Source of the DNA: a virus
Reading direction: 5' to 3' (one strand)
IMG/VR virus record: IMGVR_UViG_3300025133_000038
Location: 32,001-96,000 of that record
DNA length: 64,000 nt
This document shows positions 14,381 through 54,903 of the stretch, one piece after another (positions within the stretch are counted from its first letter, which is position 1; the number at the start of each line of letters is the position of its first letter). The position numbers were made by a program, and so were the translations under genes. The notes beneath the pieces were generated by a model that did not search any database, was not told the DNA's origin, and was given only the letters and a program-made list of their open reading frames with translations.

Positions 14381-14962
14381 ATGAAGATTTACATAACATC
14401 AGATACTCACTTTAACCACACTAACATCTGTGGTCCCGCCATCTCCTCATGGGACGGTGGATACAGACACTTTTCTTCCCTGCAAGAAATGAATGATACT
14501 ATCATCGACAACATCAATGCTGTCGTTGGTAAGAATGATGTACTCTATCACCTGGGAGACTTCGCCTTCGGAAATAAGAAGGAAATCCCTACTCTGAGAG
14601 AGCGTATCAACTGTGGTACAATTCACCTCCTGTATGGCAACCATGATGAGGCTATTGAGCATAAGTTTCCTGAATATCAGAAGCTCTTTGCTTCAACAGG
14701 CCACTATGTTGAGAAGCGTGTCAATAAGAAGAAGGTTTGTATGTTTCACTATCCTATTGCTGCGTGGAATGAGAATGGTCGTGGGTCTATCAACCTACAT
14801 GGTCACTCTCATGGTAACTTTAAGGCAGTAGGGCGTCAGCTAGACGTTGGTGTTGACTGTCACGACTTCAAGCCTCTGTTGCTTGAGGATGTGGTTGCTC
14901 AGGTCAGGGAGTTGGATGTTATTACTGTTGACCATCATACTAGGGAGACTAACTATGGATGA
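14381..14962 (+). CDS. calcineurin-like metallophosphoesterase
   Basis: SDTHF.H, HLGD, GNHD, HYP, HGHSH, DVGVD. Confidence 0.92.
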   Translation: MKIYITSDTHFNHTNICGPAISSWDGGYRHFSSLQEMNDTIIDNINAVVGKNDVLYHLGDFAFGNKKEIPTLRERINCGTIHLLYGNHDEAIEHKFPEYQKLFASTGHYVEKRVNKKKVCMFHYPIAAWNENGRGSINLHGHSHGNFKAVGRQLDVGVDCHDFKPLLLEDVVAQVRELDVITVDHHTRETNYG

Positions 14963-15247: not shown

Positions 15248-15275
15248 TTGACAAAACGGTTCCATCCCCTATAAT
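15248..15275 (+). promoter_or_regulatory. sigma70-type promoter
   Basis: TTGACA-N16-TATAAT. Confidence 0.85.
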
Positions 15276-15807: not shown

Positions 15808-15938
15808 CTCCCGTCATTGCGGTGGCATGTTGCCGACAGACGTAAGATAAGCGTAACACATGCAGTTACTGGACACGACTATAGAAGTGTCTAGGTAGGA
15901 AAAGGGTTGGCTTGGAAACCGACTACGTCCTACCGAGC
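15808..15938 (+). ncRNA. putative structured RNA between tRNAs
   Basis: Stems GCATG/CATGC, CTGGACAC/GTGTCTAG, GTAGGA/TCCTAC and GTTGG/CCGAC. Confidence 0.5.
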
Positions 15939-15940
15939 TT

Positions 15941-16029
15941 GGAAGGTAGGCAACTATTGGTTCGTTGCGCTGGTTTTGAAAACCAGTTGTCGTAATGGCA
16001 GGGATTGGGTTCGATTCCCCCACCTTCCG
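15941..16029 (+). tRNA. tRNA-Ser(TGA)
   Basis: Acceptor GGAAGGT/ACCTTCC, anticodon arm CTGGT-TTTGAAA-ACCAG, variable arm. Confidence 0.9.
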
Positions 16030-16061
16030 CTTAATAAACAAACTTTAGATAGAGAGATAAC

Positions 16062-16433
16062 ATGGCTGGTACATTTACCCTTACTCTGTATGGTACGTTA
16101 GTCAACGGAGAACACACTGAGACATTTGGTACTTCCTCTAAGTCAAGTATTGTTCAGACTGGTCAGGGAGTTCAGGGTTCAACCGTTGCGGTTGGCACTT
16201 CTGAAGAGGTTATGGTCACTGGTGATATTACTACAGAAGGTATCATATATTTGAAGAATCTTGATTCTGTAAACTACGTTACGTATGGTCCTGAAAATGC
16301 TGGCTCCCTAGTTAATTTTGGTAGGATTGCTGCTGGTGAGGAGGCTTGGCTTAGACTTGAGCCAGGAATCACATTTAGGTGGATTGCTAATACTGCTGAA
16401 GTTAAAGTTTTAATGAAATTGTTTGAGGACTAA
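16062..16433 (+). CDS. beta-rich hypothetical protein, possibly virion-associated
   Basis: G/T/S/V-rich; IYLKNLDS.NYV motif. Confidence 0.7.
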   Translation: MAGTFTLTLYGTLVNGEHTETFGTSSKSSIVQTGQGVQGSTVAVGTSEEVMVTGDITTEGIIYLKNLDSVNYVTYGPENAGSLVNFGRIAAGEEAWLRLEPGITFRWIANTAEVKVLMKLFED

Positions 16434-16444
16434 GGTTCTCTTTT

Positions 16445-16513
16445 GCTTCTGGTTACTGGTGTACGTCGCTGTCTTGTAAACAGCTAACCTCCGTTCGATT
16501 CGGAGTAGAAGCT
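16445..16513 (+). tRNA. tRNA-Thr(TGT), compact D-arm
   Basis: Acceptor GCTTCTG/TAGAAGC, anticodon arm GCTGT-CTTGTAA-ACAGC, T-arm CTCCG-TTCGATT-CGGAG. Confidence 0.85.
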
Positions 16514-16515
16514 CT

Positions 16516-16627
16516 TGCGGGTGGTAGGTCGGTTGAATCACTAAACTAAGAAAATGTCTAGTGGGTTCTTAATCTTGCTAAGCCTCATAAGCTAAGTATA
16601 AGCAGGTTCGACTCCTGTACTCCGCTA
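16516..16627 (+). tRNA. tRNA(CAT)-like gene with ~35-nt D-loop insertion
   Basis: GCGG/CCGC acceptor core, loop CT-CAT-AA, T-arm GCAGG-TTCGACT-CCTGT; 112 nt. Confidence 0.65.
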
Positions 16628-16629
16628 CT

Positions 16630-17204
16630 TGTCCCACTGTCATCGGGACACAAAACTAGTTTACCCTTTCGGAATGACGGGTGATTAGACTGCTTGCAGT
16701 ATAGATGAAAGGTCGTTCTAAACTTCCTCTTCCATGAGGGAGAATAGAGCATGGAGACTAGAGGATAAAACCTGTGGCAGGGTAGAAACCTCTCAGTAGC
16801 TAGACGGTAAGAGTGAGGGTGCCATCCCTTATGTCTGCTGAAAGGAACGATAGTTTTTGGGTGTTTTCCTGATGTACGTCATCGGTTCATAGCAAATGAA
16901 TCTGGGAAATAAAATACCATAGCAGTAGGAGGAAGTGCCTACGGTTGTTGGCGAAAGCTGATGATGCTGCTCGAAAGAGGTAAGCTAGACGGACTTCCCA
17001 GGTCTTGAAGGTTTACGAATGAAGGGTGTGGTGGCTGCAACCACTATGTTTTAAATCCAGAACTTCTACTGCTAATTCAGCGTGCTGTTGCGTGGGTGAG
17101 AACTCAACAACAGGGGTGAAGTTTGCGAAGGCTGTTATAGGTCGTGTAGTACTCCGAGAGGAGGTCACAAACTGAGAACATAAACTGCTAAAGTTCTCTT
17201 TTTT
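16630..17204 (+). ncRNA. large ornate non-coding RNA (~570 nt; GOLLD/ROOL-like context)
   Basis: ORF-free on the plus strand between two tRNAs; many GNRA hairpins, long-range helices, 5' pseudoknot, U-tailed 3' hairpin. Confidence 0.75.
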
Positions 17205-17206
17205 AT

Positions 17207-17277
17207 ACCAGTGTCCCAAGGTCAGGGAGTGTGCTTTCATAAGGCATTACGCTGAGGTTCGAGTCCTCTCACTGGTA
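17207..17277 (+). tRNA. tRNA-Met/Ile2(CAT), shifted D-arm
   Basis: Acceptor ACCAGTG/CACTGGT, anticodon arm GTGCT-TTCATAA-GGCAT, T-loop TTCGAGT. Confidence 0.82.
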
Positions 17278-17284
17278 CTTATAT

Positions 17285-17376
17285 GAGGGGACGGTACAAA
17301 TGGCTGTCAGCAGAAGCTAGACTCAAGCGGGCTGTGGTATGCGTCGTGCAAGGGTCATTCCCCGCAACCCTCTCCA
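17285..17376 (+). ncRNA. aberrant tRNA-like element ending in CCA
   Basis: GAGGG/CTCTC closing stem, 6-bp GACGGT/GCTGTC arm, degenerate T-arm GGG-TCATTC-CCC. Confidence 0.4.
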
Positions 17377-17377
17377 T

Positions 17378-17448
17378 TGGTCATTAGTGTAATGGTAGCA
17401 CTAGAGACTCTGAATCTCTCAGTCTAGGTCCGAATCCTAGATGACCAG
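17378..17448 (+). tRNA. tRNA-Gln(CTG)
   Basis: Acceptor TGGTCAT/ATGACCA, anticodon arm AGAGA-CTCTGAA-TCTCT; T-loop TCCGAAT. Confidence 0.93.
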
Positions 17449-17465
17449 CTTAAAGGACAAAAACT

Positions 17466-18119
17466 ATGGACGAAGTAATACTGATGCACCCCATGAAGAC
17501 CGGGGGGCGCACACTGATAGTTAAACTCAGGAAGCATGGAATGTTATATGCTGATGGACTATTAGCTCACGATACACTTAAAGAAGTTGTGGGAAGAGTT
17601 GGTGGATATGATTCGTTTGTATCCCGCACCTCCCTCATGGTGGCAAGAAACCCCTACTCAAGGTTGGCTTCTTTCCATCGCTTCTGCGCGAGGCTACCTA
17701 AGTCTCATGCTTACGAGTATTGTCTTACTTCATTTGAAGATTTTGTCTTAGAGCATAAAGATATATTAACAACACTATGTACTCCCCAACATAAATACTT
17801 TATGTATGAGGGTAAGTGTATAGTAAATTACATAGCAAAGTTTGAGAAGTATGGACCAGAAGTAACGTGGTTCTTAAGAAGCATTGGGATTAATGACCCA
17901 ATTAAGACAGATAACTTTCGTATGTGGAAGGAGAAGTATACTCCTGAGACACAACGTATTGTTTATGAGGCTTTTGAACAAGATTTTAACCTGCTCGACT
18001 ATGAGTTTGAGATTGATGAGGAAGAGGTTAGGTTTAAGCCTGTAAGGTCTCTACCTAATATTCAGGATGAGTTGAAGTTGCTCTATCCTAAGAAGCATTG
18101 GTTCTTTTGGACAAAGTAA
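17466..18119 (+). CDS. sulfotransferase (family 2)
   Basis: 5'-PSB HPMKTGGRT, 3'-PB RNPYSRLASF, PQ..Y, DF.LL.Y. Confidence 0.85.
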   Translation: MDEVILMHPMKTGGRTLIVKLRKHGMLYADGLLAHDTLKEVVGRVGGYDSFVSRTSLMVARNPYSRLASFHRFCARLPKSHAYEYCLTSFEDFVLEHKDILTTLCTPQHKYFMYEGKCIVNYIAKFEKYGPEVTWFLRSIGINDPIKTDNFRMWKEKYTPETQRIVYEAFEQDFNLLDYEFEIDEEEVRFKPVRSLPNIQDELKLLYPKKHWFFWTK

Positions 18120-18200: not shown

Positions 18201-18216
18201 CTGAGTTTGATAGTAT

Positions 18217-18397
18217 GGGTTATGTGTCGCATGGCGAATAAACTATACCTACAAGCTCTTGCGTTCGCCCTCTCTGGTAAGGGGCTGAGTCGAGGGTTGC
18301 CATGCAAGCAACTGATACAGACTCCTTGACTGTGACCAGCACAGGACATGACGCTTCTAAACGGTATGGAGATGACTTACGAAGTTTGAGGGTTGGT
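18217..18397 (+). ncRNA. putative structured RNA between tRNA-Ile and tRNA-Gln
   Basis: Rod with GCATGGCGA/TTGCCATGC and flanking helices, then a second domain with CTGTG/CACAG. Confidence 0.55.
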
Positions 18398-18408
18398 GGT
18401 GGGAACAT

Positions 18409-18476
18409 AGCGGTGATACTGGTGTATACGGGAGGCTTTGAACTTCCTAGGCTTAGTCCGATTCTAAGTGCCGCTG
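18409..18476 (+). tRNA. tRNA-Gln(TTG), compact D-arm
   Basis: Acceptor AGCGGTG/TGCCGCT, anticodon arm GGAGG-CTTTGAA-CTTCC; 68 nt. Confidence 0.82.
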
Positions 18477-18501
18477 CTTTTTTGATTCAAGAGTAAAGAT
18501 T

Positions 18502-23717: not shown

Positions 23718-24862
23718 TGAAATACCTTAATAAGATTAAGCAGATAGTTGGCTCTAAAAAGAAGGTCGTACTAACCGTCACTGGTGGTGGGACCGGAGTG
23801 TTTGGACACCTACTAAACTATGGTGGTGGGTCGGAGTTCCTAGTAGAGGGTATTATCAACTACTCTATGGAGAGTACTCAAGACCTAATAGGTACACCAG
23901 ACAGTTATGTTAGTAAGGAGGCCGCCCTTAAGTTGGCGGTAGCTGCCTACCAACGGTGTGTCAAGCTGGGTGTTGACCCTAAGGAAGCACACGGAGTATC
24001 AACAACGGCCAAGCTGGTGACTGAGGGTGAGCGAGAGGGTAGGGTCCATGAGATTTACGCGGCCTACCACTCAAACGACAAGTCCTCGTATGTCCACCTG
24101 AGGTTTGAACATGATAGGTCTCGCGTGCAAGAGGAGTATCTCTGTGAGAACTTTATCTTAGATGCCCTAAACCAATGGTTCTGTGGGGTGGACATTGCTG
24201 ATAAAAAGAACGGTCTTTTTACCTGCATGAAAAAGCCAGAGGTTATAGTGGGAGATACGTGTGAGACTAGCCCTGAAATAAAAGAAATAATTCGCGACAA
24301 CCGGAAAGTAATCGTTATTCATAAGTCTGAGGGCACTTGGAGCCAGCGAGATTTGGAGAAGAGTCGTCCCCTTATTTTTCCTGGGTCGTTTAATCCTATT
24401 CATGCTCAACACCTAAGGATGGCTGACGCTGCCTATAAGAAAACAGATAAGCAGGTATGGCTAGAACTATCTATAGGTAATACAGACAAGCCAGCTCTTG
24501 ATTATATTACTTTGAGGGATAGAGTCTTAGATATTATAAATAAGGTTGCCTCTAGGGATAGTGTCGCTGGGGTAGTCATTTCTAATGCACCACTCTTTAT
24601 CCAAAAAGCTGAGGCTATCAACAGTTGTGCTACCTTTCTAATGGGGATGGACACATTCAATAGAATGAATGAAAAGAAGTATTATCCCAAGGAAACTAAA
24701 CATATCCTTGATGGCTATTGGGTAAAGCTAATGGTCTTCAGTAGGAAGGGAGACAAGAGAATTTATCCTTCTGAGTTTGGAGACATAACAACTTTCATTT
24801 CAAAGCAAGAGTATAAAGATACCGGACTATCGTCCACACAGATTCGCAACGCTAAAAATTAA
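23714..24862 (+). CDS. CinA/PncC-like plus cytidylyltransferase (NadD-like) fusion
   Basis: TGGG...GGGS..L.E...Y...VS.E.A..LA; FPGSFNPIHAQH, F..KA, G.DT, SSTQIR. Confidence 0.8.
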   Translation: MMKYLNKIKQIVGSKKKVVLTVTGGGTGVFGHLLNYGGGSEFLVEGIINYSMESTQDLIGTPDSYVSKEAALKLAVAAYQRCVKLGVDPKEAHGVSTTAKLVTEGEREGRVHEIYAAYHSNDKSSYVHLRFEHDRSRVQEEYLCENFILDALNQWFCGVDIADKKNGLFTCMKKPEVIVGDTCETSPEIKEIIRDNRKVIVIHKSEGTWSQRDLEKSRPLIFPGSFNPIHAQHLRMADAAYKKTDKQVWLELSIGNTDKPALDYITLRDRVLDIINKVASRDSVAGVVISNAPLFIQKAEAINSCATFLMGMDTFNRMNEKKYYPKETKHILDGYWVKLMVFSRKGDKRIYPSEFGDITTFISKQEYKDTGLSSTQIRNAKN

Positions 24863-29793: not shown

Positions 29794-30687
29794 ATGGCTA
29801 CAAAAAACATCACAGCTTTCAAGATTGTCAACCCAGCAGCAGGTAACGATTATTTCGATACATCCGCTACCGCTACTACGAGTTCGACACAACCTACCCT
29901 TAATGTTGGTAGGGCTACAAACTTAGGTACATCCGCAAGCACTACAAGTGCAGGCATGACCCGTATTGATATGGGTGACGGTGGACGTACTATCTTTGGT
30001 TCACAAGTACTTGTTTCTGCTCGTCAGGGCGTTCAAGGTGCTGACGTATCCGGCTCAACAGCTATCACTAGTGTCGCAGATAGTAGCGGCTTAGCTTTGT
30101 TTACTTTGACCAGTCACGGTCTAAGTGTTGGAGATAGCATCGTTGTTTTAGATGATGGTACTAATAAGGGTGTTACGGGTCCACAAAGAGTTATTGAGGT
30201 TCCTCTCTCTAGTACTTTCCGCACAGACAAGGCATATGCCGCTGCTGTTGGAAGTCTAACCTACGGTACTGTCCAAGGCGACTTCGCCACAATGACAGCG
30301 GGACAATATGTTGCCCGTCGTGTTAGCGGTATGACTCTTCGTGGTACAGCAAGCAACATTCTTAGGAGTGGTGGTTCTGACTATGCGATTCGTCGTTCTA
30401 TTCATAAAGTAGAAACCGCATTCCGTCACGACGGTGTTGCTACTGCTATCCGTGCTGGTTATTGGGATGAGTACAGTGCTACGTTCACTACTGCCCCAAC
30501 AGCTACTAATAGCAGCGTTGGAAATGTCGCTGGCTCTACCGTTACTGATGGTACTGCTGACCATGCAGCCCAACCTACTCGCGCTATTCCAGGTGAACTG
30601 GTTTATCGTCAGAGTGGTGCGCAAACTGCTGGTGTTGCTGCCGCAGACGGTGTCCAACTTGATGACTATGTCGCAAAGACTGGATAA
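29794..30687 (+). CDS. putative virion structural protein
   Basis: A/T/S/G-rich; HGLSVGDSIVV repeat-like motif; PTRAIPGELVY; followed by a terminator. Confidence 0.6.
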   Translation: MATKNITAFKIVNPAAGNDYFDTSATATTSSTQPTLNVGRATNLGTSASTTSAGMTRIDMGDGGRTIFGSQVLVSARQGVQGADVSGSTAITSVADSSGLALFTLTSHGLSVGDSIVVLDDGTNKGVTGPQRVIEVPLSSTFRTDKAYAAAVGSLTYGTVQGDFATMTAGQYVARRVSGMTLRGTASNILRSGGSDYAIRRSIHKVETAFRHDGVATAIRAGYWDEYSATFTTAPTATNSSVGNVAGSTVTDGTADHAAQPTRAIPGELVYRQSGAQTAGVAAADGVQLDDYVAKTG

Positions 30688-49365: not shown

Positions 49366-51246
49366 ATGAAAACTTATACACCACTACATTGTCATACTCA
49401 TTACAGTCTACTTGATGGCCTATCAAAGCCAGAGAAGGTAGCTGAGAGACTTGACGAGATAGGTGTTGAGGCGTGTGCTATCACAGACCACGGTAATATC
49501 AGTGGTAGTGTGGCCTTCTCTAATGCCCTAAGGGGCCATGAACGCCCTAAGAAATCTATTCTTGGGTGCGAACTATATGTTTGTAGTGAACATGCTACTA
49601 TTCAAGTTCCAGAGAACCAAAAGCTACTACATCTTCCAGTCCTAGCTAAGAACAAGGCTGGTTGGAACAAGTTAATTCACCTAACTAGTAGTTCTAATTC
49701 CTCGGAACACTTCTATCATAAGCCCCGGCTGTCCCTAGACCAGATAACGGAGTATTCTGGTAACCTTATTGGCTTCAGTGGTCACCTGGGTTCCCATATT
49801 GCCTCCTCTATCCTGGTTGATGGTAAGCCCCATGATAACTGGCGTAAGCAAACAGCTAAGCTAGCCGAATGGATGCGAGACTGTTTCGGTAAGGACAATT
49901 TCTACCTAGAAATCCAACTAATGGACCACGTAAGCAATCCCCTACAGAAGGTGGTAGCAGACTGCGTGCGAACAATTAGTAAGGACACAGGTATCCCCTG
50001 CATTGCTACTCCTGACGCCCACTATGCTAGGTCAGAAGACGCAATCGACCAGAGGATTCTTCTCTGCACCAACTTGAGAAAGACTCTAACTGAGTGTTAT
50101 AACGATAAGAATCAAACTATGGGTTGTTTCTTCAAGTCTGAGAATTATCACATCCCTTCATACGAAGAGATGCTTTCATATGGGCATACTGAGGAAGAGT
50201 TAGATAACACAATGGCTCTGACTAGTACTGTTGATGACTATCAGATTGTTGGCCCTCCTATTTTCCCTCAGTTTGAATGTCCTGGTGGCATTAGTGCTGA
50301 TGACCACCTAAGGCAGATGTGTAGGGATGGTTTTAGGCAAAAGGTACTAGAGAAGGGATTAGATACAGCCCAATATGGGGCTCAGGCAGACAAAGAACTT
50401 AAGGTATTTGTAGATGCTCAACTATCTGCGTACTTCCTGATTGTTCAGGATGTTCTACAGTTTTGTACTGATAAAGGGTGGATGTTAGGACCGGGGCGTG
50501 GCTCAGCAGCAGGCTGTCTAGTCTCATACCTGATTGACATTACTCAGATTGACCCTCTTCCACATGAGTTGTGGTTTGAGCGATTTTATAACGCTGGCCG
50601 TAATAGTGCTGACCATGTATCTATTCCTGATATTGATATGGACGTGCCTATCACCAAGCGGGCGGCTGTTATTGACTATTTAAAAGAGAAGTACGGGCAA
50701 GACAAAGTCTCTCAGATGATTACCTATCAGACAATGAAGGGTAGTGGGGCGTTGAAGGCTGTACTAAGGGCTCACGGTGGTGTTCCGTTCGAGATGATGA
50801 ACGAGATGACCAAGAACATGCCTGAGGAGGCTAAGATTTCCAGTGAGCTTCAGGCGATGAAGGATGCTACTGGTAGTGCCTCTATTATTCAGTGGGCGCT
50901 GGAGAACAGAGCGAAGGATTTTGCTGACTGGGTGACGATGGATGACGAGGGTAACCTTGAGGGTCCATTCGCACAGCGGTTTGAACAGGCTATGAGACTA
51001 GAGGGTACTAAGGTAGCTCAGTCTAAGCACGCTGCTGGTGTAGTTATTGCACCGGAGGCCCTAAGTAACATCTGTCCGATGGTACTGGATACAAAGAGCA
51101 AGGAACGCAACATGATTGCGGGACTTGAAATGAATGACCTTGAGGCGTTAGGCTTAATCAAATTTGATGTACTTGGCATTGCTTACTTGGATAAGATTAT
51201 GGGTATTCAGGACATTCTTGGGACAGGGGAGATTCAGTGTGCGTAA
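49366..51246 (+). CDS. dnaE: DNA polymerase III alpha, N-terminal half (PHP plus palm)
   Basis: HCHTHYSLLDG, TDHG, DAHY, GRGSAAG, FERF, PDIDMD, HAAGVV, KFDVLG. Confidence 0.93.
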   Translation: MKTYTPLHCHTHYSLLDGLSKPEKVAERLDEIGVEACAITDHGNISGSVAFSNALRGHERPKKSILGCELYVCSEHATIQVPENQKLLHLPVLAKNKAGWNKLIHLTSSSNSSEHFYHKPRLSLDQITEYSGNLIGFSGHLGSHIASSILVDGKPHDNWRKQTAKLAEWMRDCFGKDNFYLEIQLMDHVSNPLQKVVADCVRTISKDTGIPCIATPDAHYARSEDAIDQRILLCTNLRKTLTECYNDKNQTMGCFFKSENYHIPSYEEMLSYGHTEEELDNTMALTSTVDDYQIVGPPIFPQFECPGGISADDHLRQMCRDGFRQKVLEKGLDTAQYGAQADKELKVFVDAQLSAYFLIVQDVLQFCTDKGWMLGPGRGSAAGCLVSYLIDITQIDPLPHELWFERFYNAGRNSADHVSIPDIDMDVPITKRAAVIDYLKEKYGQDKVSQMITYQTMKGSGALKAVLRAHGGVPFEMMNEMTKNMPEEAKISSELQAMKDATGSASIIQWALENRAKDFADWVTMDDEGNLEGPFAQRFEQAMRLEGTKVAQSKHAAGVVIAPEALSNICPMVLDTKSKERNMIAGLEMNDLEALGLIKFDVLGIAYLDKIMGIQDILGTGEIQCA

Positions 51247-52554: not shown

Positions 52555-53261
52555 TGAATTTCAAAAACATCGTAGTCTATGACTGGGAGACAGACTCACC
52601 TAAACCTGAGACCTGCAACCCAGTCCAACTCGGTGCTGTAGTTATCAACCCTCGTAAGCTAGAGTTCATTAAAGGTGCTGAGTTTAACTCAGATATGAGA
52701 CCTCTAGACATTGATGATGATGACTATTTCGACCGAAACAAAAGCACCATCGAGTGGCACTCTAGAATTTCTAAGTGTTCAACTGATGAGGTTATTGCAA
52801 GATGGAAGGCAGCTCCTTCACAAGAGTCGGTATGGCGTAGTTTCACTCAGTGGCTATCAAAGTATCACCTAAAGCAATCTCGTCAGTCTAAGTTCACGGC
52901 CCCTATTAGGGCTGGGTATAACATTCTCAAGTTCGATGATGTTATCACTCAGAGAATGGCCGAGAAGTATGGTGACGTTGAAAAGGATGGGACAATCAAG
53001 ATTTGGTCACCTAGAGACCACATTGACTTGCTCCCTATGATGTTCTGGTGGTTTGAGAACCAAGAAAATCCTCAGAAGTATACTATGGATGTAATGAGAC
53101 CCTACTTTGGCGTTAGCGCTGAGAAGGCTCACGATGCCCTTAAGGATGTATATGACGAAGGCCAGATACTAATTAAGTGTCTACAGACACAACGATGGCT
53201 GACTGACAAACTACTTACCCAAGGAAAGTTAGGTCCGAAAAGTGGAAAAGTTCAAGTTTAA
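52554..53261 (+). CDS. DEDDh 3'-5' exonuclease (DnaQ/epsilon-like)
   Basis: DWET, GYN...FD, AHDALKD. Confidence 0.9.
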   Translation: MNFKNIVVYDWETDSPKPETCNPVQLGAVVINPRKLEFIKGAEFNSDMRPLDIDDDDYFDRNKSTIEWHSRISKCSTDEVIARWKAAPSQESVWRSFTQWLSKYHLKQSRQSKFTAPIRAGYNILKFDDVITQRMAEKYGDVEKDGTIKIWSPRDHIDLLPMMFWWFENQENPQKYTMDVMRPYFGVSAEKAHDALKDVYDEGQILIKCLQTQRWLTDKLLTQGKLGPKSGKVQV

Positions 53262-54903
53262 CTACTGTGATTGTGAATTTCCCTGCACTGGCAGCGGAGA
53301 TGATTTGAAGATTATCTTCAATCCTAGTCTCGAAAGCATCCCTATGTACTGTGAAGCTACATGGGACTTGATTGGGTCTGGGAATACTAAAGGTGTCTTC
53401 CAATTAGAGTCTAGGTTGGGCCAAATGCTGGCTAAGAAGTTAAAACCTAGGAATATTGACCACCTATCGGCCCTTGTCGCCATCATGCGTCCAGGTTGTC
53501 TGGAAGCTATGCGTGATGGTAAGTCGGTTACCCAACACTACATCGACAGAAAGAATGATGAAGAAGCGGTGACGTATTTTCACCCCTCTTTGGAGCCAAG
53601 TCTACGTTCTACCTTTGGTGAAATGATTTACCAAGAACAAGCCATGCAAATAGCGAGAGACCTAGCGGGTTTCTCTCTGCAAGAAGCTGACGTTCTACGT
53701 AAGGCCATCGGTAAAAAGAAGGCTGACATGATGAATAAGGTTGAATATACCTTTATGGAGGGCTGTAAGTTCACTGGTGTTGTTCCTAATGATGTAGCTA
53801 AAGAAATTTTTGAGTGGATTCGTAAATCTCAGAGATATTCATTCAATAAATCTCACTCCGTTAGTTATGCTTACAATGCATACCTATCGGCTTATACCAA
53901 GGCACACTTTCGGCGTGCCTTTTTTACCTCCTATCTTTATTATGCAAAGGAAAAGATTAAACCGCATGATGAGGTTAGAGAGTTAGTTAATAATGCAAGG
54001 ACTATGGATGTAGACGTATATCCTCCTGACTTGCGTAAGCAGAATGCTCACTTCGCCCTATTTGACCGCAAAGTATTCTTTGGTTTGGTTGATATTAAGG
54101 GTGTGGGTGAGTCTGCAATCACACGAATGACGAAGAAAATAGTTCAGGCAGAAGAAGAACTGGGTAGGCCAATCGAGGATTGGTGTTGGTCAGACTTCTT
54201 ACTGTTCCTGTCCCAAAACATTAGCAAGACCGCTGTCGAAGCCATGATTAAGGTCGGGGCTTTACGATGGATGAACGTGTCACGTCAACGAATGTGGTTT
54301 GAGTTCGAGCAATTCTCTGCTGTCTCTGATAGGGAGCAGAAGTGGCTCAAAGAGAAGTATATAGATGATAGTCAGAGTGATATGAGCTGCTCTGAACTAT
54401 TACAAATACTGTTGGACTCCCCTGTTGGGAGAAAAGGTGGTATATCCAATAAGAATAGGCATAAGAAGGTGGTTGGTATCAAGGCAATAGTCGATAAGCC
54501 ACCATCTAGCCTAGAGGATACGCCTGAGTGGATAGCCTCTGTTGAAGAATCACTAATGGGAATTTCCATCACATGCACTGTGGTAGACTCGTGCGAAACG
54601 AGCGCTGCTAACACAACATGTAAAGATTTTAACAGTGGTACTAGTCGCAAAAACGGTATAATGATGGCTGTAAAAGTGGACGAGGTGAAAGAGATTACAA
54701 CTAAGAAAGGGAAGAACCCTGGTCAGAAGATGGCCTTTCTTTCTGTTTCAGATAGTTATGGTGCTTTGGATTCTTGTGTCCTATTTCCTGACGAGTGGAC
54801 TCAAAGTAGGGTGAAGCTGTTCATAGGCAACACTGTTATGCTTGGAGGCGAACGAGGTAAGGAAAAGGATAGTTTTATAGTTAATAAAGTTTGGCAAATT
54901 TAG
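53242..54903 (+). CDS. dnaE: DNA polymerase III alpha, C-terminal half (fingers, HhH, OB)
   Basis: GVFQLES, RPG, YQEQ.M, AD.LRKAIGKKK, YSFNKSHS..Y, IKGVG, MAF...D. Confidence 0.93.
   Translation: MEKFKFNYCDCEFPCTGSGDDLKIIFNPSLESIPMYCEATWDLIGSGNTKGVFQLESRLGQMLAKKLKPRNIDHLSALVAIMRPGCLEAMRDGKSVTQHYIDRKNDEEAVTYFHPSLEPSLRSTFGEMIYQEQAMQIARDLAGFSLQEADVLRKAIGKKKADMMNKVEYTFMEGCKFTGVVPNDVAKEIFEWIRKSQRYSFNKSHSVSYAYNAYLSAYTKAHFRRAFFTSYLYYAKEKIKPHDEVRELVNNARTMDVDVYPPDLRKQNAHFALFDRKVFFGLVDIKGVGESAITRMTKKIVQAEEELGRPIEDWCWSDFLLFLSQNISKTAVEAMIKVGALRWMNVSRQRMWFEFEQFSAVSDREQKWLKEKYIDDSQSDMSCSELLQILLDSPVGRKGGISNKNRHKKVVGIKAIVDKPPSSLEDTPEWIASVEESLMGISITCTVVDSCETSAANTTCKDFNSGTSRKNGIMMAVKVDEVKEITTKKGKNPGQKMAFLSVSDSYGALDSCVLFPDEWTQSRVKLFIGNTVMLGGERGKEKDSFIVNKVWQI

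What the first reader, a model, noticed from the sequence alone, without database searches (positions are those of the whole stretch)
16630..17204. About 570-nt ornate non-coding RNA
Seen: no plus-strand ORF; a 5' pseudoknot; helix AGCAGTAGGA(16921-30)/TTCTACTGCT(17064-73) enclosing GGAAGT/ACTTCC; GNRA hairpins at 16944-65, 16970-79 and 17152-63; AGTA/GAA loop-E-like pairs; a repeated AGCTAGACGG (16798, 16983); and a 3' hairpin with a U-tract. Known: GOLLD and ROOL are large tRNA-adjacent phage RNAs of unknown function. I cannot assign the family by eye, so it may be a divergent member or a new class.
Basis: partly seen in the sequence, partly recalled or inferred. Interest (0 to 1): 0.8.

Follow-up and report, generated by a model that had tools for sequence, protein, structure and literature searches.

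The report
Orphan large phage tRNA-island RNA
A 576-base stretch between two transfer-RNA genes of an uncultured marine phage is most likely a gene for a conserved non-coding RNA that matches no catalogued family, but its detailed fold and its job remain unproven.

Summary
The stretch is real and non-coding. It has no ORF under table 11, TAG=Q or table 4, and no Pfam or PHROG remnant. It lies on the tRNA strand, between a fast-evolving CAU tRNA-like element and tRNA-Met, in a 119-kb marine phage record with 35 tRNAs and a tmRNA.

A near relative differs at 6 of 576 bases, while third codon positions of neighbouring ORFs differ at 5.8%. A roughly 81-89% identical variant in marine runs stops being alike exactly at 16630 and 17205, next to different flanks. 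The unit is therefore 16630-17205.

No Rfam family matches at E<=10, including GOLLD, ROOL, RNase P, tmRNA and introns. Nine of 49 distant phage records reached through the neighbouring phosphoesterase gene carry true GOLLD in a similar tRNA-flanked place. Two custom models found no kinship with it.

Support for the fold is thin: z -2.47, and five GNRA hairpins against 1.6 expected. One long-range helix (16656-72/16971-88) beats 149 of 150 shuffles, and two small hairpins show compensated changes.

Verdict: probably an orphan large phage RNA of the GOLLD/ROOL kind by setting, released by tRNA processing. Its function is unknown. This scan has noted similar orphans on other DNA.

The parts
16516..16626 (+). 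Upstream CAU tRNA-like element with a long hairpin in place of the D-arm. It ends 3 nt before the RNA unit and evolves fast.
   Evidence: ARAGORN does not call it. Rfam gives only a weak tRNA-Sec-like match at 16560-16626, 15.5 bits, E 6.1. It differs at 29 of 112 positions from the near relative. The fold of the relative's copy keeps acceptor, anticodon (CAU) and T arms. In the two variant contigs, the 30 letters before 16630 also end in a 5-pair, 7-nt-loop T-arm-like hairpin plus about 8 nt (table 7).
16630..17205 (+). The RNA unit, with limits set by homology.
   Evidence: A 32,051-nt contig of run X8 and contigs of run X4 align from exactly 16630 to exactly 17205 and run on unlike the window on both sides (tables 7 and 8). 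The near relative differs at 6 of 576 positions. There is no ORF and no Rfam match.
16630..16650 (+). 5' hairpin (6 pairs, 9-nt loop). The loop may pair with 16674-80 as a pseudoknot; this is untested.
   Evidence: Pair probability 0.95; sequence read. It lies in the 55-nt 5' piece that differs at 6 positions in the X8 contig and 7 in the X4 contig of the variant.
16656..16672 (+). 5' strand of the candidate long-range helix.
   Evidence: It pairs with 16971-88 in 16 pairs with one bulge, -21.9 kcal/mol, pair probability 0.64-0.71. Weighted helix score 37 against 28.3 +/- 3.0 in shuffles; 1 of 150 shuffles reaches it. No variant data bear on it.
16685..16794 (+). Variable domain, predicted as two or three hairpins.
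   Evidence: In the variant these 110 nt are replaced by 111 unlike letters (table 5). Local hairpins at 16715-50 and 16752-16802 have pair probabilities 0.8-1.0.
16884..16902 (+). Hairpin (7 pairs, 5-nt loop) in which the variant changes only the loop.
   Evidence: Pair probability 0.98. Variant changes at 16891, 16894 and +AT after 16895 all fall in the loop, with none listed in either stem strand.
16896..17044 (+). Core that is identical between the window and the 81-89% variant.
   Evidence: No difference row lies between 16895 and 17045, table 3. A 151-nt contig of X8 spans 16897-17047 with 0 other letters (table 8). Caveats: 44 rows were hidden, the near relative has 4 of its 6 changes here, and both types co-occur in runs X4 and X8, so recent recombination can explain the identity.
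16946..16963 (+). GAAA-capped hairpin. It extends to 9 pairs (16944-52 / 16957-65), many of them G-U.
   Evidence: The near relative changes 16962 T>C, turning G-U into G-C.
16971..16988 (+). 3' strand of the candidate long-range helix. It overlaps the small CUC-GAAA-GAG hairpin and the second AGCTAGAC motif, so these are alternatives.
17012..17020 (+). Mini-hairpin whose closing position changes on both sides in the near relative.
   Evidence: 17012 T>G and 17020 T>C turn U.U into G-C. The pairing is my reading. The MFE pairs these bases elsewhere, and there both changes break pairs.
17085..17113 (+). GAGA-capped hairpin (6 + 5 pairs).
   Evidence: Pair probability 0.97-0.98; GNRA count. The variant has three 1-nt insertions here (table 4); its letters were not shown.
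17152..17163 (+). Hairpin CUCC-GAGA-GGAG, kept with a different stem in the variant.
   Evidence: The loose end of the X4 contig after 17151 reads a 5-pair stem CUUCC/GGAAG around a 7-nt loop (table 7). That is a paired insertion, and the GNRA loop is not kept.
17174..17204 (+). 3' hairpin (6 pairs, 13-nt loop) and a T run, ending 2 nt before tRNA-Met.
   Evidence: Pair probability 0.90. The terminator scan does not list it, because the loop is too long.
17207..17278 (+). tRNA-Met (CAT) directly downstream.
   Evidence: ARAGORN; Rfam tRNA 31.4 bits.

Best explanation
Window 16630-17205 (+) is a gene for a roughly 576-nt non-coding RNA of an uncultured marine phage.

Inferred maturation: it is transcribed as part of the phage's long tRNA array. 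RNase P cuts at the 5' end of the next tRNA-Met and so makes its 3' end. The 3'-end processing of the tRNA-like element just upstream makes its 5' end.

Inferred action: the released RNA is a stable, folded molecule that acts in trans during infection. It would be an orphan family of the same kind as GOLLD and ROOL, which are large phage RNAs placed in tRNA islands with unknown function.

Shown: it is non-coding, it is under purifying selection, its limits are discrete in several flanking contexts, and it matches no known family.

Not shown: transcription as one precursor, the processing sites, the fold beyond a few hairpins, and any activity.
For: 1. Non-coding. The longest + strand ORF is 49 aa. 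No frame opens under TAG=Q or table 4. All 14 stop-to-stop frames of at least 28 aa were listed; 10 of them plus 4 start-codon ORFs were scanned in Pfam and PHROGs, with a best E-value of 0.11.

2. Constraint. The near relative differs at 6 of 576 bases (1.0%). Third codon positions differ at 61 of 1,055 codons (5.8%) in eight neighbouring ORFs, and at 19.4% and 4.6% in the two nearest.

3. Discrete unit. An 81-89% identical variant in runs X8 and X4 is alike from exactly 16630 to exactly 17205. Both flanks are unlike the window, and the upstream flanks of X8 and X4 differ from each other.

4. Setting. It is on the same strand as, and 1-3 nt from, a tRNA-like element and tRNA-Met, inside a run of 24 tRNAs in the window. 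The record holds 35 tRNAs and a tmRNA. A 12-of-12 sigma-70 consensus lies upstream at 15248-75.

5. Strand-specific fold signals. The + strand has z -2.47 and the - strand -0.86. There are five GNRA hairpins on + and two on -; 23 of 1000 shuffles reach five. A long-range helix is beaten or equalled by only 1 of 150 shuffles.

6. Variant changes that fit hairpins. There is a paired insertion in 17152-63 and loop-only change in 16884-16902. In the near relative, U-A becomes U-G at 16881, G-U becomes G-C at 16962, and U.U becomes G-C at 17012/17020.

7. Kind. Of 49 phage records reached through homologs of the neighbouring phosphoesterase, 9 hold true GOLLD (285-330 bits). In 8 of these it lies 4-17 kb downstream on the same strand. 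In 2 of the 9 loci a tRNA-Met follows GOLLD within 10-16 nt.

8. One 163-nt contig of a marine RNA-Seq run covers 16982-17144 with 2 differences.
Against: - Only two full-length sequences could be fetched, and they are 99% alike, so no covariation statistics exist.
- The variant's letters are known only for about 16826-17080, and only through a difference table with 44 hidden rows.
- The thermodynamic signal is modest, and sub-pieces fold no better than shuffles.
Two MFE helices (17020-24/17049-53 and 16980-86/17010-16) are broken by natural changes.
- The other ORF-free spacers of the island are just as conserved, at 0.7-1.5%. The constraint could therefore belong to the precursor as a whole rather than to a trans-acting RNA.
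- The 149-nt identical core may reflect recombination between co-occurring phages rather than selection.
- The family is tiny. No further homolog was found in IMG/VR, JGI metagenomes, GTDB genomes or GenBank phages by the searches run.
Confidence: 0.55

Rival explanations
1. It is a cis-acting structured spacer of the polycistronic tRNA precursor. It would set folding, processing order or stability of the neighbouring tRNAs and have no function once released.
For: All ORF-free spacers of the island are equally conserved: 15809-15940 at 1.5%, 17279-17377 at 1.0% and 18202-18501 at 0.7%. The unit abuts tRNA(-like) genes on both sides. ORF-free gaps of at least 300 nt next to tRNAs are common: 42 were found in the 80 phage loci examined.
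Against: At 576 nt it is far longer than needed for spacing. The unit keeps its exact limits while the flanking tRNA(-like) elements differ, so it behaves as a module of its own. The only part of the 1.1-kb stretch seen in the RNA run, apart from a tRNA-Gln-like piece at 17387-17440 that differs at 6 letters, lies inside the unit.
Confidence: 0.2
2. It is a very divergent member of GOLLD or ROOL that the Rfam models miss.
For: It has the same genomic setting as GOLLD in distant relatives: a tRNA island, sometimes followed by tRNA-Met. Its length is near ROOL's 574 model positions. A weak GOLLD of 98 bits in G043 shows that divergent GOLLDs exist. My core model R1 gave its best foreign hit, 17.2 bits, inside the 5' domain of one GOLLD locus.
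Against: There is no GOLLD or ROOL hit at E<=10 on the whole record or in cmscan. nhmmer profiles of nine marine-phage GOLLD 3' domains and 5' domains found nothing in window 16000-17600. The reciprocal covariance model R2 of the GOLLD 5' segment, run with filters off on the whole window, gave 26 noise hits and none in 16630-17205. By eye, none of the conserved GOLLD blocks seen is present.
Confidence: 0.07
3. It is the decayed remnant of a gene or mobile element, for example a homing endonuclease of the kind that sits in phage tRNA clusters, or it holds a small protein gene.
For: Such insertions are known in phage tRNA regions (recalled, not checked here). Some indels in the variant sum to three within short spans (17094-17104; 17150-17152; 17159-17160). 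There is a 49-aa + ORF at 17026-17175 and a 75-aa - ORF at 17013-17240.
Against: No Pfam or PHROG match appeared for the scanned frame fragments (10 of the 14 frames of at least 28 aa, plus 4 ORFs with a start codon); the best E-value was 0.11. Divergence is about six times lower than at synonymous sites, which a pseudogene would not show. The 75-aa ORF runs into tRNA-Met and past the homology limit. Six consecutive substitutions at 17047-52 and a 110-nt replaced block do not fit a conserved small ORF.
Confidence: 0.06
4. It has no function of its own: the conservation reflects only recent common descent and recombination among a few co-occurring marine phages.
For: Identity between the window and its relative is mosaic, from 66% to 100% per feature. 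The 149-nt core is identical to the variant's although the closer relative has 4 changes there. The family is confined to a few near relatives in every collection searched.
Against: A neutral stretch flanked by ORFs with 4.6-19.4% third-position divergence would be expected to differ at about 33 of 576 sites at the 5.8% mean rate. It differs at 6. The exact module limits persist across different flanks.
Confidence: 0.12

Closest known systems
GOLLD RNA (Rfam RF02032)
   Same: It is a large phage RNA of unknown function, encoded in or beside tRNA islands. The passages read in bioRxiv 10.1101/2024.12.08.627333 say GOLLD is often near tRNA islands and that the marine env-38 GOLLD lies downstream of a Met-tRNA. 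Here, 9 of 49 phage records that share the neighbouring phosphoesterase gene hold GOLLD. In 8 of them it lies 4-17 kb downstream on the same strand, and in 2 of the 9 a tRNA-Met follows directly.
   Different: No sequence or structure match was found by the Rfam model, by two nhmmer profiles or by a custom model of the 5' domain. The unit is 576 nt, against roughly 960 nt for the marine-phage GOLLDs seen here (about 550-nt 5' domain plus about 410-nt 3' domain). The conserved GOLLD blocks are absent. Multimer formation is untested.
ROOL RNA (Rfam RF03087)
   Same: The length is similar (the ROOL model has 574 positions). It is encoded in phages and prophages, often near tRNA islands, and no protein partner or function is known (passages).
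   Different: There is no match at E<=10. None of the 49 related phage records has ROOL. The ROOL name refers to a rumen origin and this phage is marine.
T4 RNA C and RNA D
   Same: They are phage-encoded stable RNAs of still unknown function (passage in PMC9697503). From recall, they lie in the T4 tRNA gene cluster and are matured from the same precursors as the tRNAs. That is the maturation route proposed here.
   Different: From recall, they are about 120-140 nt, not 576 nt. No sequence comparison was made. The T4 location and processing come from memory, not from a call.
MALAT1 / mascRNA-type maturation (tRNA-like element as a processing handle)
   Same: This is a working analogy only. A tRNA-like structure next to a long non-coding RNA lets RNase P and RNase Z define the end of the long RNA (recalled). 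Here a fast-evolving tRNA-like element always precedes the unit.
   Different: That system is eukaryotic and unrelated in sequence. Here the tRNA-like element is upstream, a true tRNA is downstream, and no cleavage has been shown.

Membership tests
GOLLD (RF02032) | Match to the Rfam covariance model (416 positions, gathering score 150 bits) | tested here: not met
   No match at E<=10 on the whole 119-kb record or in cmscan of 16400-17400 and 16890-17080. The same model scored 285-330 bits in 9 other phage records, so the search works.
GOLLD (RF02032) | Likeness to the less conserved 5' domain of marine-phage GOLLDs | tested here: not met
   An nhmmer profile of nine 5' domains gave no hit. 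Model R2 (9 sequences, 28 pairs, 17 of them with compensatory changes) gave 26 noise hits in the window and none in 16630-17205. The one-way hit of my model R1 (17.2 bits) was not reciprocated.
GOLLD (RF02032) | Phage or prophage location next to tRNA genes | tested here: met
   This is context only and does not define membership.
GOLLD / ROOL | Assembly into homo-oligomeric cages (cryo-EM; passages) | not testable with these tools
   It needs in-vitro transcription followed by mass photometry or cryo-EM.
ROOL (RF03087) | Match to the Rfam covariance model (574 positions, gathering score 99.1 bits) | tested here: not met
   No match at E<=10 on the whole record or in cmscan. Caveat: no positive control rang.
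tmRNA | tRNA-like domain plus tag reading frame | tested here: not met
   ARAGORN and Rfam find none here. The phage's tmRNA lies elsewhere, at record 23928-24248.
RNase P RNA | Match to an Rfam RNase P model; conserved regions forming P4 | tested here: not met
   No hit at E<=10 in cmscan of all 4227 Rfam families. That these include the RNase P models, and their names, is recalled. Short look-alike words (GGAGGAAGUG, CAGAAC, GGGUGCCA) are in the wrong order to form a P4-like helix. That comparison used a consensus recalled from memory, so it is only a lead that I rejected.
Group I / group II introns, self-cleaving ribozymes | Match to the Rfam intron or ribozyme models; interruption of a host gene | tested here: not met
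   No hit at E<=10. RF01998, a group II domain model searched by mistake, also gave none. Both flanking tRNA(-like) genes are complete, so nothing is interrupted.
tRNA / decayed tRNA genes | Cloverleaf match inside the unit | tested here: not met
   At E<=10 the only tRNA-type matches in 16400-17400 are at 16560-16626 and 17207-17277, both outside the unit.

The most novel reading that the evidence does not exclude
This is the founding member of a new class of large phage RNA that fills, in one lineage of marine phages, the tRNA-flanked slot that GOLLD fills in others. It would then be a functional analogue that arose independently. It would be cut out by the tRNA-processing enzymes and would act, like GOLLD and ROOL, as an RNA-only assembly tied to the phage's own translation toolkit of 35 tRNAs and a tmRNA.
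Probability: 0.15. Interest if true: 0.75.

Novelty: new member of a known kind. Interest (0 to 1): 0.45.

Why it matters
Large phage RNAs beside tRNA islands (GOLLD, ROOL) have solved structures but no known job. An unrelated RNA held in a comparable tRNA-flanked place by other marine phages would argue that the place, and so the link to tRNA supply or translation, matters more than the particular fold. It would also give a second, shorter molecule on which to test that function. In addition, the locus offers a clean bacterial-virus case in which tRNA-like elements may serve only as cutting signals for a long non-coding RNA. If instead it is only a processing spacer, it is ordinary.

Tried and rejected
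Homolog hunting mostly failed.
- blastn 'distant' of 16500-17300 against GenBank phages gave no match.
- Flanking proteins led only to the near relative IMGVR_UViG_3300025122_000042 and to one 41% homolog with no RNA beside it.
- Pattern scans of viral contigs, metagenome contigs and genome contigs returned only the near relative (L013, L105). All other hits were chance, as checked by nhmmer, tRNA and ORF context.
- The DnaE-type polymerase found only a 97% relative in IMG/VR, and at most about 33% identity in cultured phages.
- The 80 loci around phosphoesterase homologs gave no nhmmer hit at E<=100.
- Whole records behind 49 of them gave only chance matches of at most 27 nt. I gave 50 of the 80 loci, chosen mostly for long contigs; 30 were left out and 1 was not held.
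- Model R1 of the core gave only a non-reciprocated 17-bit hit.

Readings I rejected:
- An RNase P reading, prompted by short motif look-alikes, because Rfam is silent and the strand order is wrong.
- A sarcin-ricin-like reading of AGUAC...GAGAGGA at 17148-63, because the variant does not keep the loop or the flanks.
- tmRNA, because it lies elsewhere.
- Alternative genetic codes.

Other steps that led nowhere:
- RNAduplex of the RNA against itself was uninformative, because it pairs the whole molecule.
- The tRNA-Met after GOLLD in L119 and L122 is not specially like the one here.
- A 15-nt complement to record 30072-30086 (E 0.054) was not pursued.
- Parts of the stretch without cover in runs X10 and X17 say nothing.
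- Literature searches found no description of this RNA. These three term searches are all I can claim. Supplements were not consulted.
Full report
WHAT IS THERE

The window is bases 32001-96000 of a 119,350-bp IMG/VR virus record that is linear and estimated 79% complete. Runs that hold the stretch are marine metagenomes. All 24 tRNA genes of the window lie on the + strand between 257 and 19811. The whole record has 35 tRNAs and a tmRNA at record 23928-24248.

The finding lies in a 1,032-bp gap without ORFs of 80 aa or more on the + strand (16434-17465). This gap holds, in order:
- tRNA-Thr, 16445-16514;
- an odd CAU tRNA-like element, about 16516-16626;
- the 580 bases in question;
- tRNA-Met, 17207-17278;
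- a 99-nt spacer;
- tRNA-Gln.

The phage is far from cultured ones. Its split DnaE-type polymerase reaches about 33% identity at best.

CHECK OF THE OBSERVATION

The stretch is non-coding:
- The longest + strand ORF is 49 aa.
- No long frame appears under TAG=Q or table 4.
- The scanned frame fragments (10 of the 14 frames of at least 28 aa, plus 4 ORFs with a start codon) match no Pfam or PHROG family; the best E-value is 0.11.

Against chance the picture is mixed.
- The + strand folds better than shuffles (z -2.47, 1 of 100). The - strand does not (z -0.86).
- GNRA-capped hairpins are enriched on the + strand: 5 against 1.62, with 23 of 1000 shuffles and 2.4% of 580-nt genome windows reaching five. 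The - strand has 2.
It extends to 12 uninterrupted pairs, shuffles average 12.4, and 77 of 100 shuffles reach 12.
It has 16 pairs and one bulge, -21.9 kcal/mol, pair probability 0.64-0.71, and 1 of 150 shuffles scores as high. It competes with the small CUC-GAAA-GAG hairpin and with the proposed 5' pseudoknot, so these cannot all hold at once.

RELATIVES AND WHAT THEY SHOW

Only one close relative could be fetched: IMGVR_UViG_3300025122_000042, which is the same as JGI contig Ga0080013_1000049 of 159,701 nt.

It differs at 6 of 576 bases of the unit. Third codon positions of eight neighbouring ORFs differ at 61 of 1,055 codons (5.8%), with 19.4% and 4.6% in the two nearest. The upstream tRNA-like element differs at 29 of 112 positions. 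The unit is therefore under purifying selection. So are the other ORF-free spacers of the island, at 0.7-1.5%.

Of the six changes:
- 16881 gives U-A to U-G in a predicted hairpin.
- 16962 gives G-U to G-C in a predicted hairpin.
- 17012 and 17020 together turn U.U into G-C in a possible mini-hairpin.
- The MFE structure pairs the last two elsewhere, and there they break pairs.

Laying contigs of four public runs on 16400-17500 gave the most useful result.
- A 32,051-nt contig of run X8, and two contigs of run X4, carry a variant.
- It aligns to 16630-16684 with 6 differences in the X8 contig and 7 in the X4 contig.
- It aligns to 16795-17205 with 67 differences and 11 inserted letters.
- The 110 nt between are replaced by 111 unlike letters.
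- Likeness stops exactly at 16630 and 17205.
- The 30 letters shown before 16630 differ between the window, X8 and X4. In each they end in a 5-pair, 7-nt-loop hairpin of T-arm type plus about 8 nt.

So the unit is a module with fixed limits, preceded in every context by a fast-changing tRNA-like element.

Within the part of the variant whose differences I can read (about 16826-17080):
- The hairpin 16884-16902 changes only in its loop.
- No difference is listed between 16895 and 17045. A separate 151-nt contig spans 16897-17047 without change.
- 17045-17080 is heavily changed.
- The loose end after 17151 shows the hairpin 17152-63 rebuilt with a longer stem (CUUCC/GGAAG in place of CUCC/GGAG) and a 7-nt loop in place of GAGA.

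Caveats:
- 44 difference rows were hidden. My reading that they lie beyond 17080 is an inference from the order of the rows.
- The identical 149-nt core may be a recombination tract. The closer relative has 4 of its 6 changes there, and both types occur in the same runs.

One 163-nt contig of a marine RNA-Seq run covers 16982-17144 with 2 differences. This is a weak hint of expression.

KNOWN FAMILIES

- cmscan of all 4227 Rfam families finds only tRNAs at gathering score.
- At E<=10 in the unit it finds nothing but noise: isrN at E 3.3 and snoRNA-like matches at E 3-5.5.
- ROOL and GOLLD models run on the whole record give nothing at E<=10.

A lead appeared when I searched 49 IMG/VR records reached through homologs of the neighbouring phosphoesterase gene (window 14381-14962).
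- Nine hold true GOLLD (285-330 bits) and one holds a weak GOLLD (98 bits). None holds ROOL.
- In 8 of the 9, GOLLD lies 4-17 kb downstream of the phosphoesterase homolog on the same strand (coordinates).
- In two loci a tRNA-Met follows GOLLD after 10-16 nt.
- In two loci a tmRNA is about 0.8-0.9 kb away.

Here the unit starts 1.7 kb downstream of the phosphoesterase gene and abuts tRNA-Met. I therefore tested kinship directly.
- nhmmer profiles of the nine GOLLD 3' domains and of their roughly 550-nt 5' domains find nothing in window 16000-17600.
- My covariance model R1 of the core (150 positions, structure from the MFE) had its best foreign hit, 17.2 bits, in the 5' domain of one GOLLD locus.
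- The reciprocal model R2 was built from nine GOLLD 5' segments with well-supported covarying hairpins. Run on the whole window with filters off, it gave 26 noise hits and none in the unit.

I conclude that the unit is not a detectable GOLLD or ROOL. It resembles them in kind and in setting only.

HOW IT MOST LIKELY WORKS

Shown:
- It is a non-coding, selectively constrained module on the tRNA strand.
- It is bracketed within 1-3 nt by a tRNA-like element and a tRNA.

Inferred:
- It is transcribed with the tRNA array; a perfect sigma-70 consensus lies at 15248-75.
- RNase P cleavage at the tRNA-Met 5' end makes its 3' end.
- 3' processing of the upstream tRNA-like element makes its 5' end. The rapid divergence of that element suggests it serves mainly as a cutting signal.
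- The released RNA is stable and acts in trans.

What it does is unknown. Because GOLLD occupies a comparable place in other phages, and because this phage invests heavily in translation RNAs, my best guess is a role tied to the phage's translation take-over. This is a guess.

The main rival, at about 0.2, is that it is only a structured spacer that serves maturation of the precursor.

NOVELTY AND VERDICT

I found no description in three literature searches. Papers seen:
- Passages of bioRxiv 10.1101/2024.12.08.627333.
- Passages of PMC9697503.
- PMC5737381 as a search listing only.
- Other literature statements are recalled.

Earlier notes of this scan report several other orphan large RNAs in phage or giant-virus tRNA islands on other DNA. 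None shares sequence words with this one.

I file it as a new member of a known kind: large tRNA-island RNAs of phages. Confidence is moderate that it is a functional RNA gene and low in any particular fold. The family is so far confined to a few marine phage variants.

Noticed in passing
record G000:C1:23928-24248 (outside the window, about 8 kb before its start): ARAGORN calls a phage-encoded tmRNA with a 25-residue tag ending in ALAA. With 35 tRNAs, the record carries an unusually full set of translation RNAs.
   Followed up: partly
window 16516-16626: A CAU tRNA-like element has a long hairpin in place of the D-arm. The insert differs in sequence and length from the near relative's (29 of 112 positions) but still folds as a hairpin. 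It may be a processing handle rather than a decoding tRNA.
   Followed up: partly
L118-L126 (IMG/VR records G002, G005, G010, G016, G017, G019, G020, G030, G033): Nine of the 49 phage records searched, all of which share the calcineurin-like phosphoesterase gene, carry GOLLD. In 8 it lies 4-17 kb downstream of the phosphoesterase gene on the same strand. Their GOLLD 5' domains are conserved over about 430-560 nt and contain covarying hairpins that the Rfam model does not cover.
   Followed up: partly
L127 = G043:C1:251967-252447: A 561-kb phage record holds a GOLLD-like RNA that scores only 98 bits, below Rfam's 150-bit cut-off, with several insertions. It looks like a divergent GOLLD subtype.
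   Followed up: no
window 16798, 16983, 17315 (and 5 other sites): The 8-mer AGCTAGAC occurs 8 times in the window against 2.35 expected; 0 of 100 shuffles reach 8. Three copies lie within 520 nt in the RNA island, one of them in the next spacer, 17279-17377.
   Followed up: no
window 15809-15940, 17279-17377, 18202-18501: Other ORF-free spacers between tRNAs are as conserved as the tRNAs, at 0.7-1.5% divergence from the relative. They may be further small RNA genes or processing elements.
   Followed up: no
window 15248-15275: A perfect sigma-70 consensus (TTGACA, 16 nt, TATAAT) lies upstream of the tRNA block that contains the unit.
   Followed up: no
window 49366-51246 and 53242-54903: The DnaE-type DNA polymerase is split into two ORFs about 2 kb apart, with two other ORFs between them.
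   Followed up: no
L022-L101 (80 phage loci): There are 42 ORF-free gaps of at least 300 nt that abut a tRNA gene, in the 33 of the 80 loci that have tRNAs.
   Followed up: no
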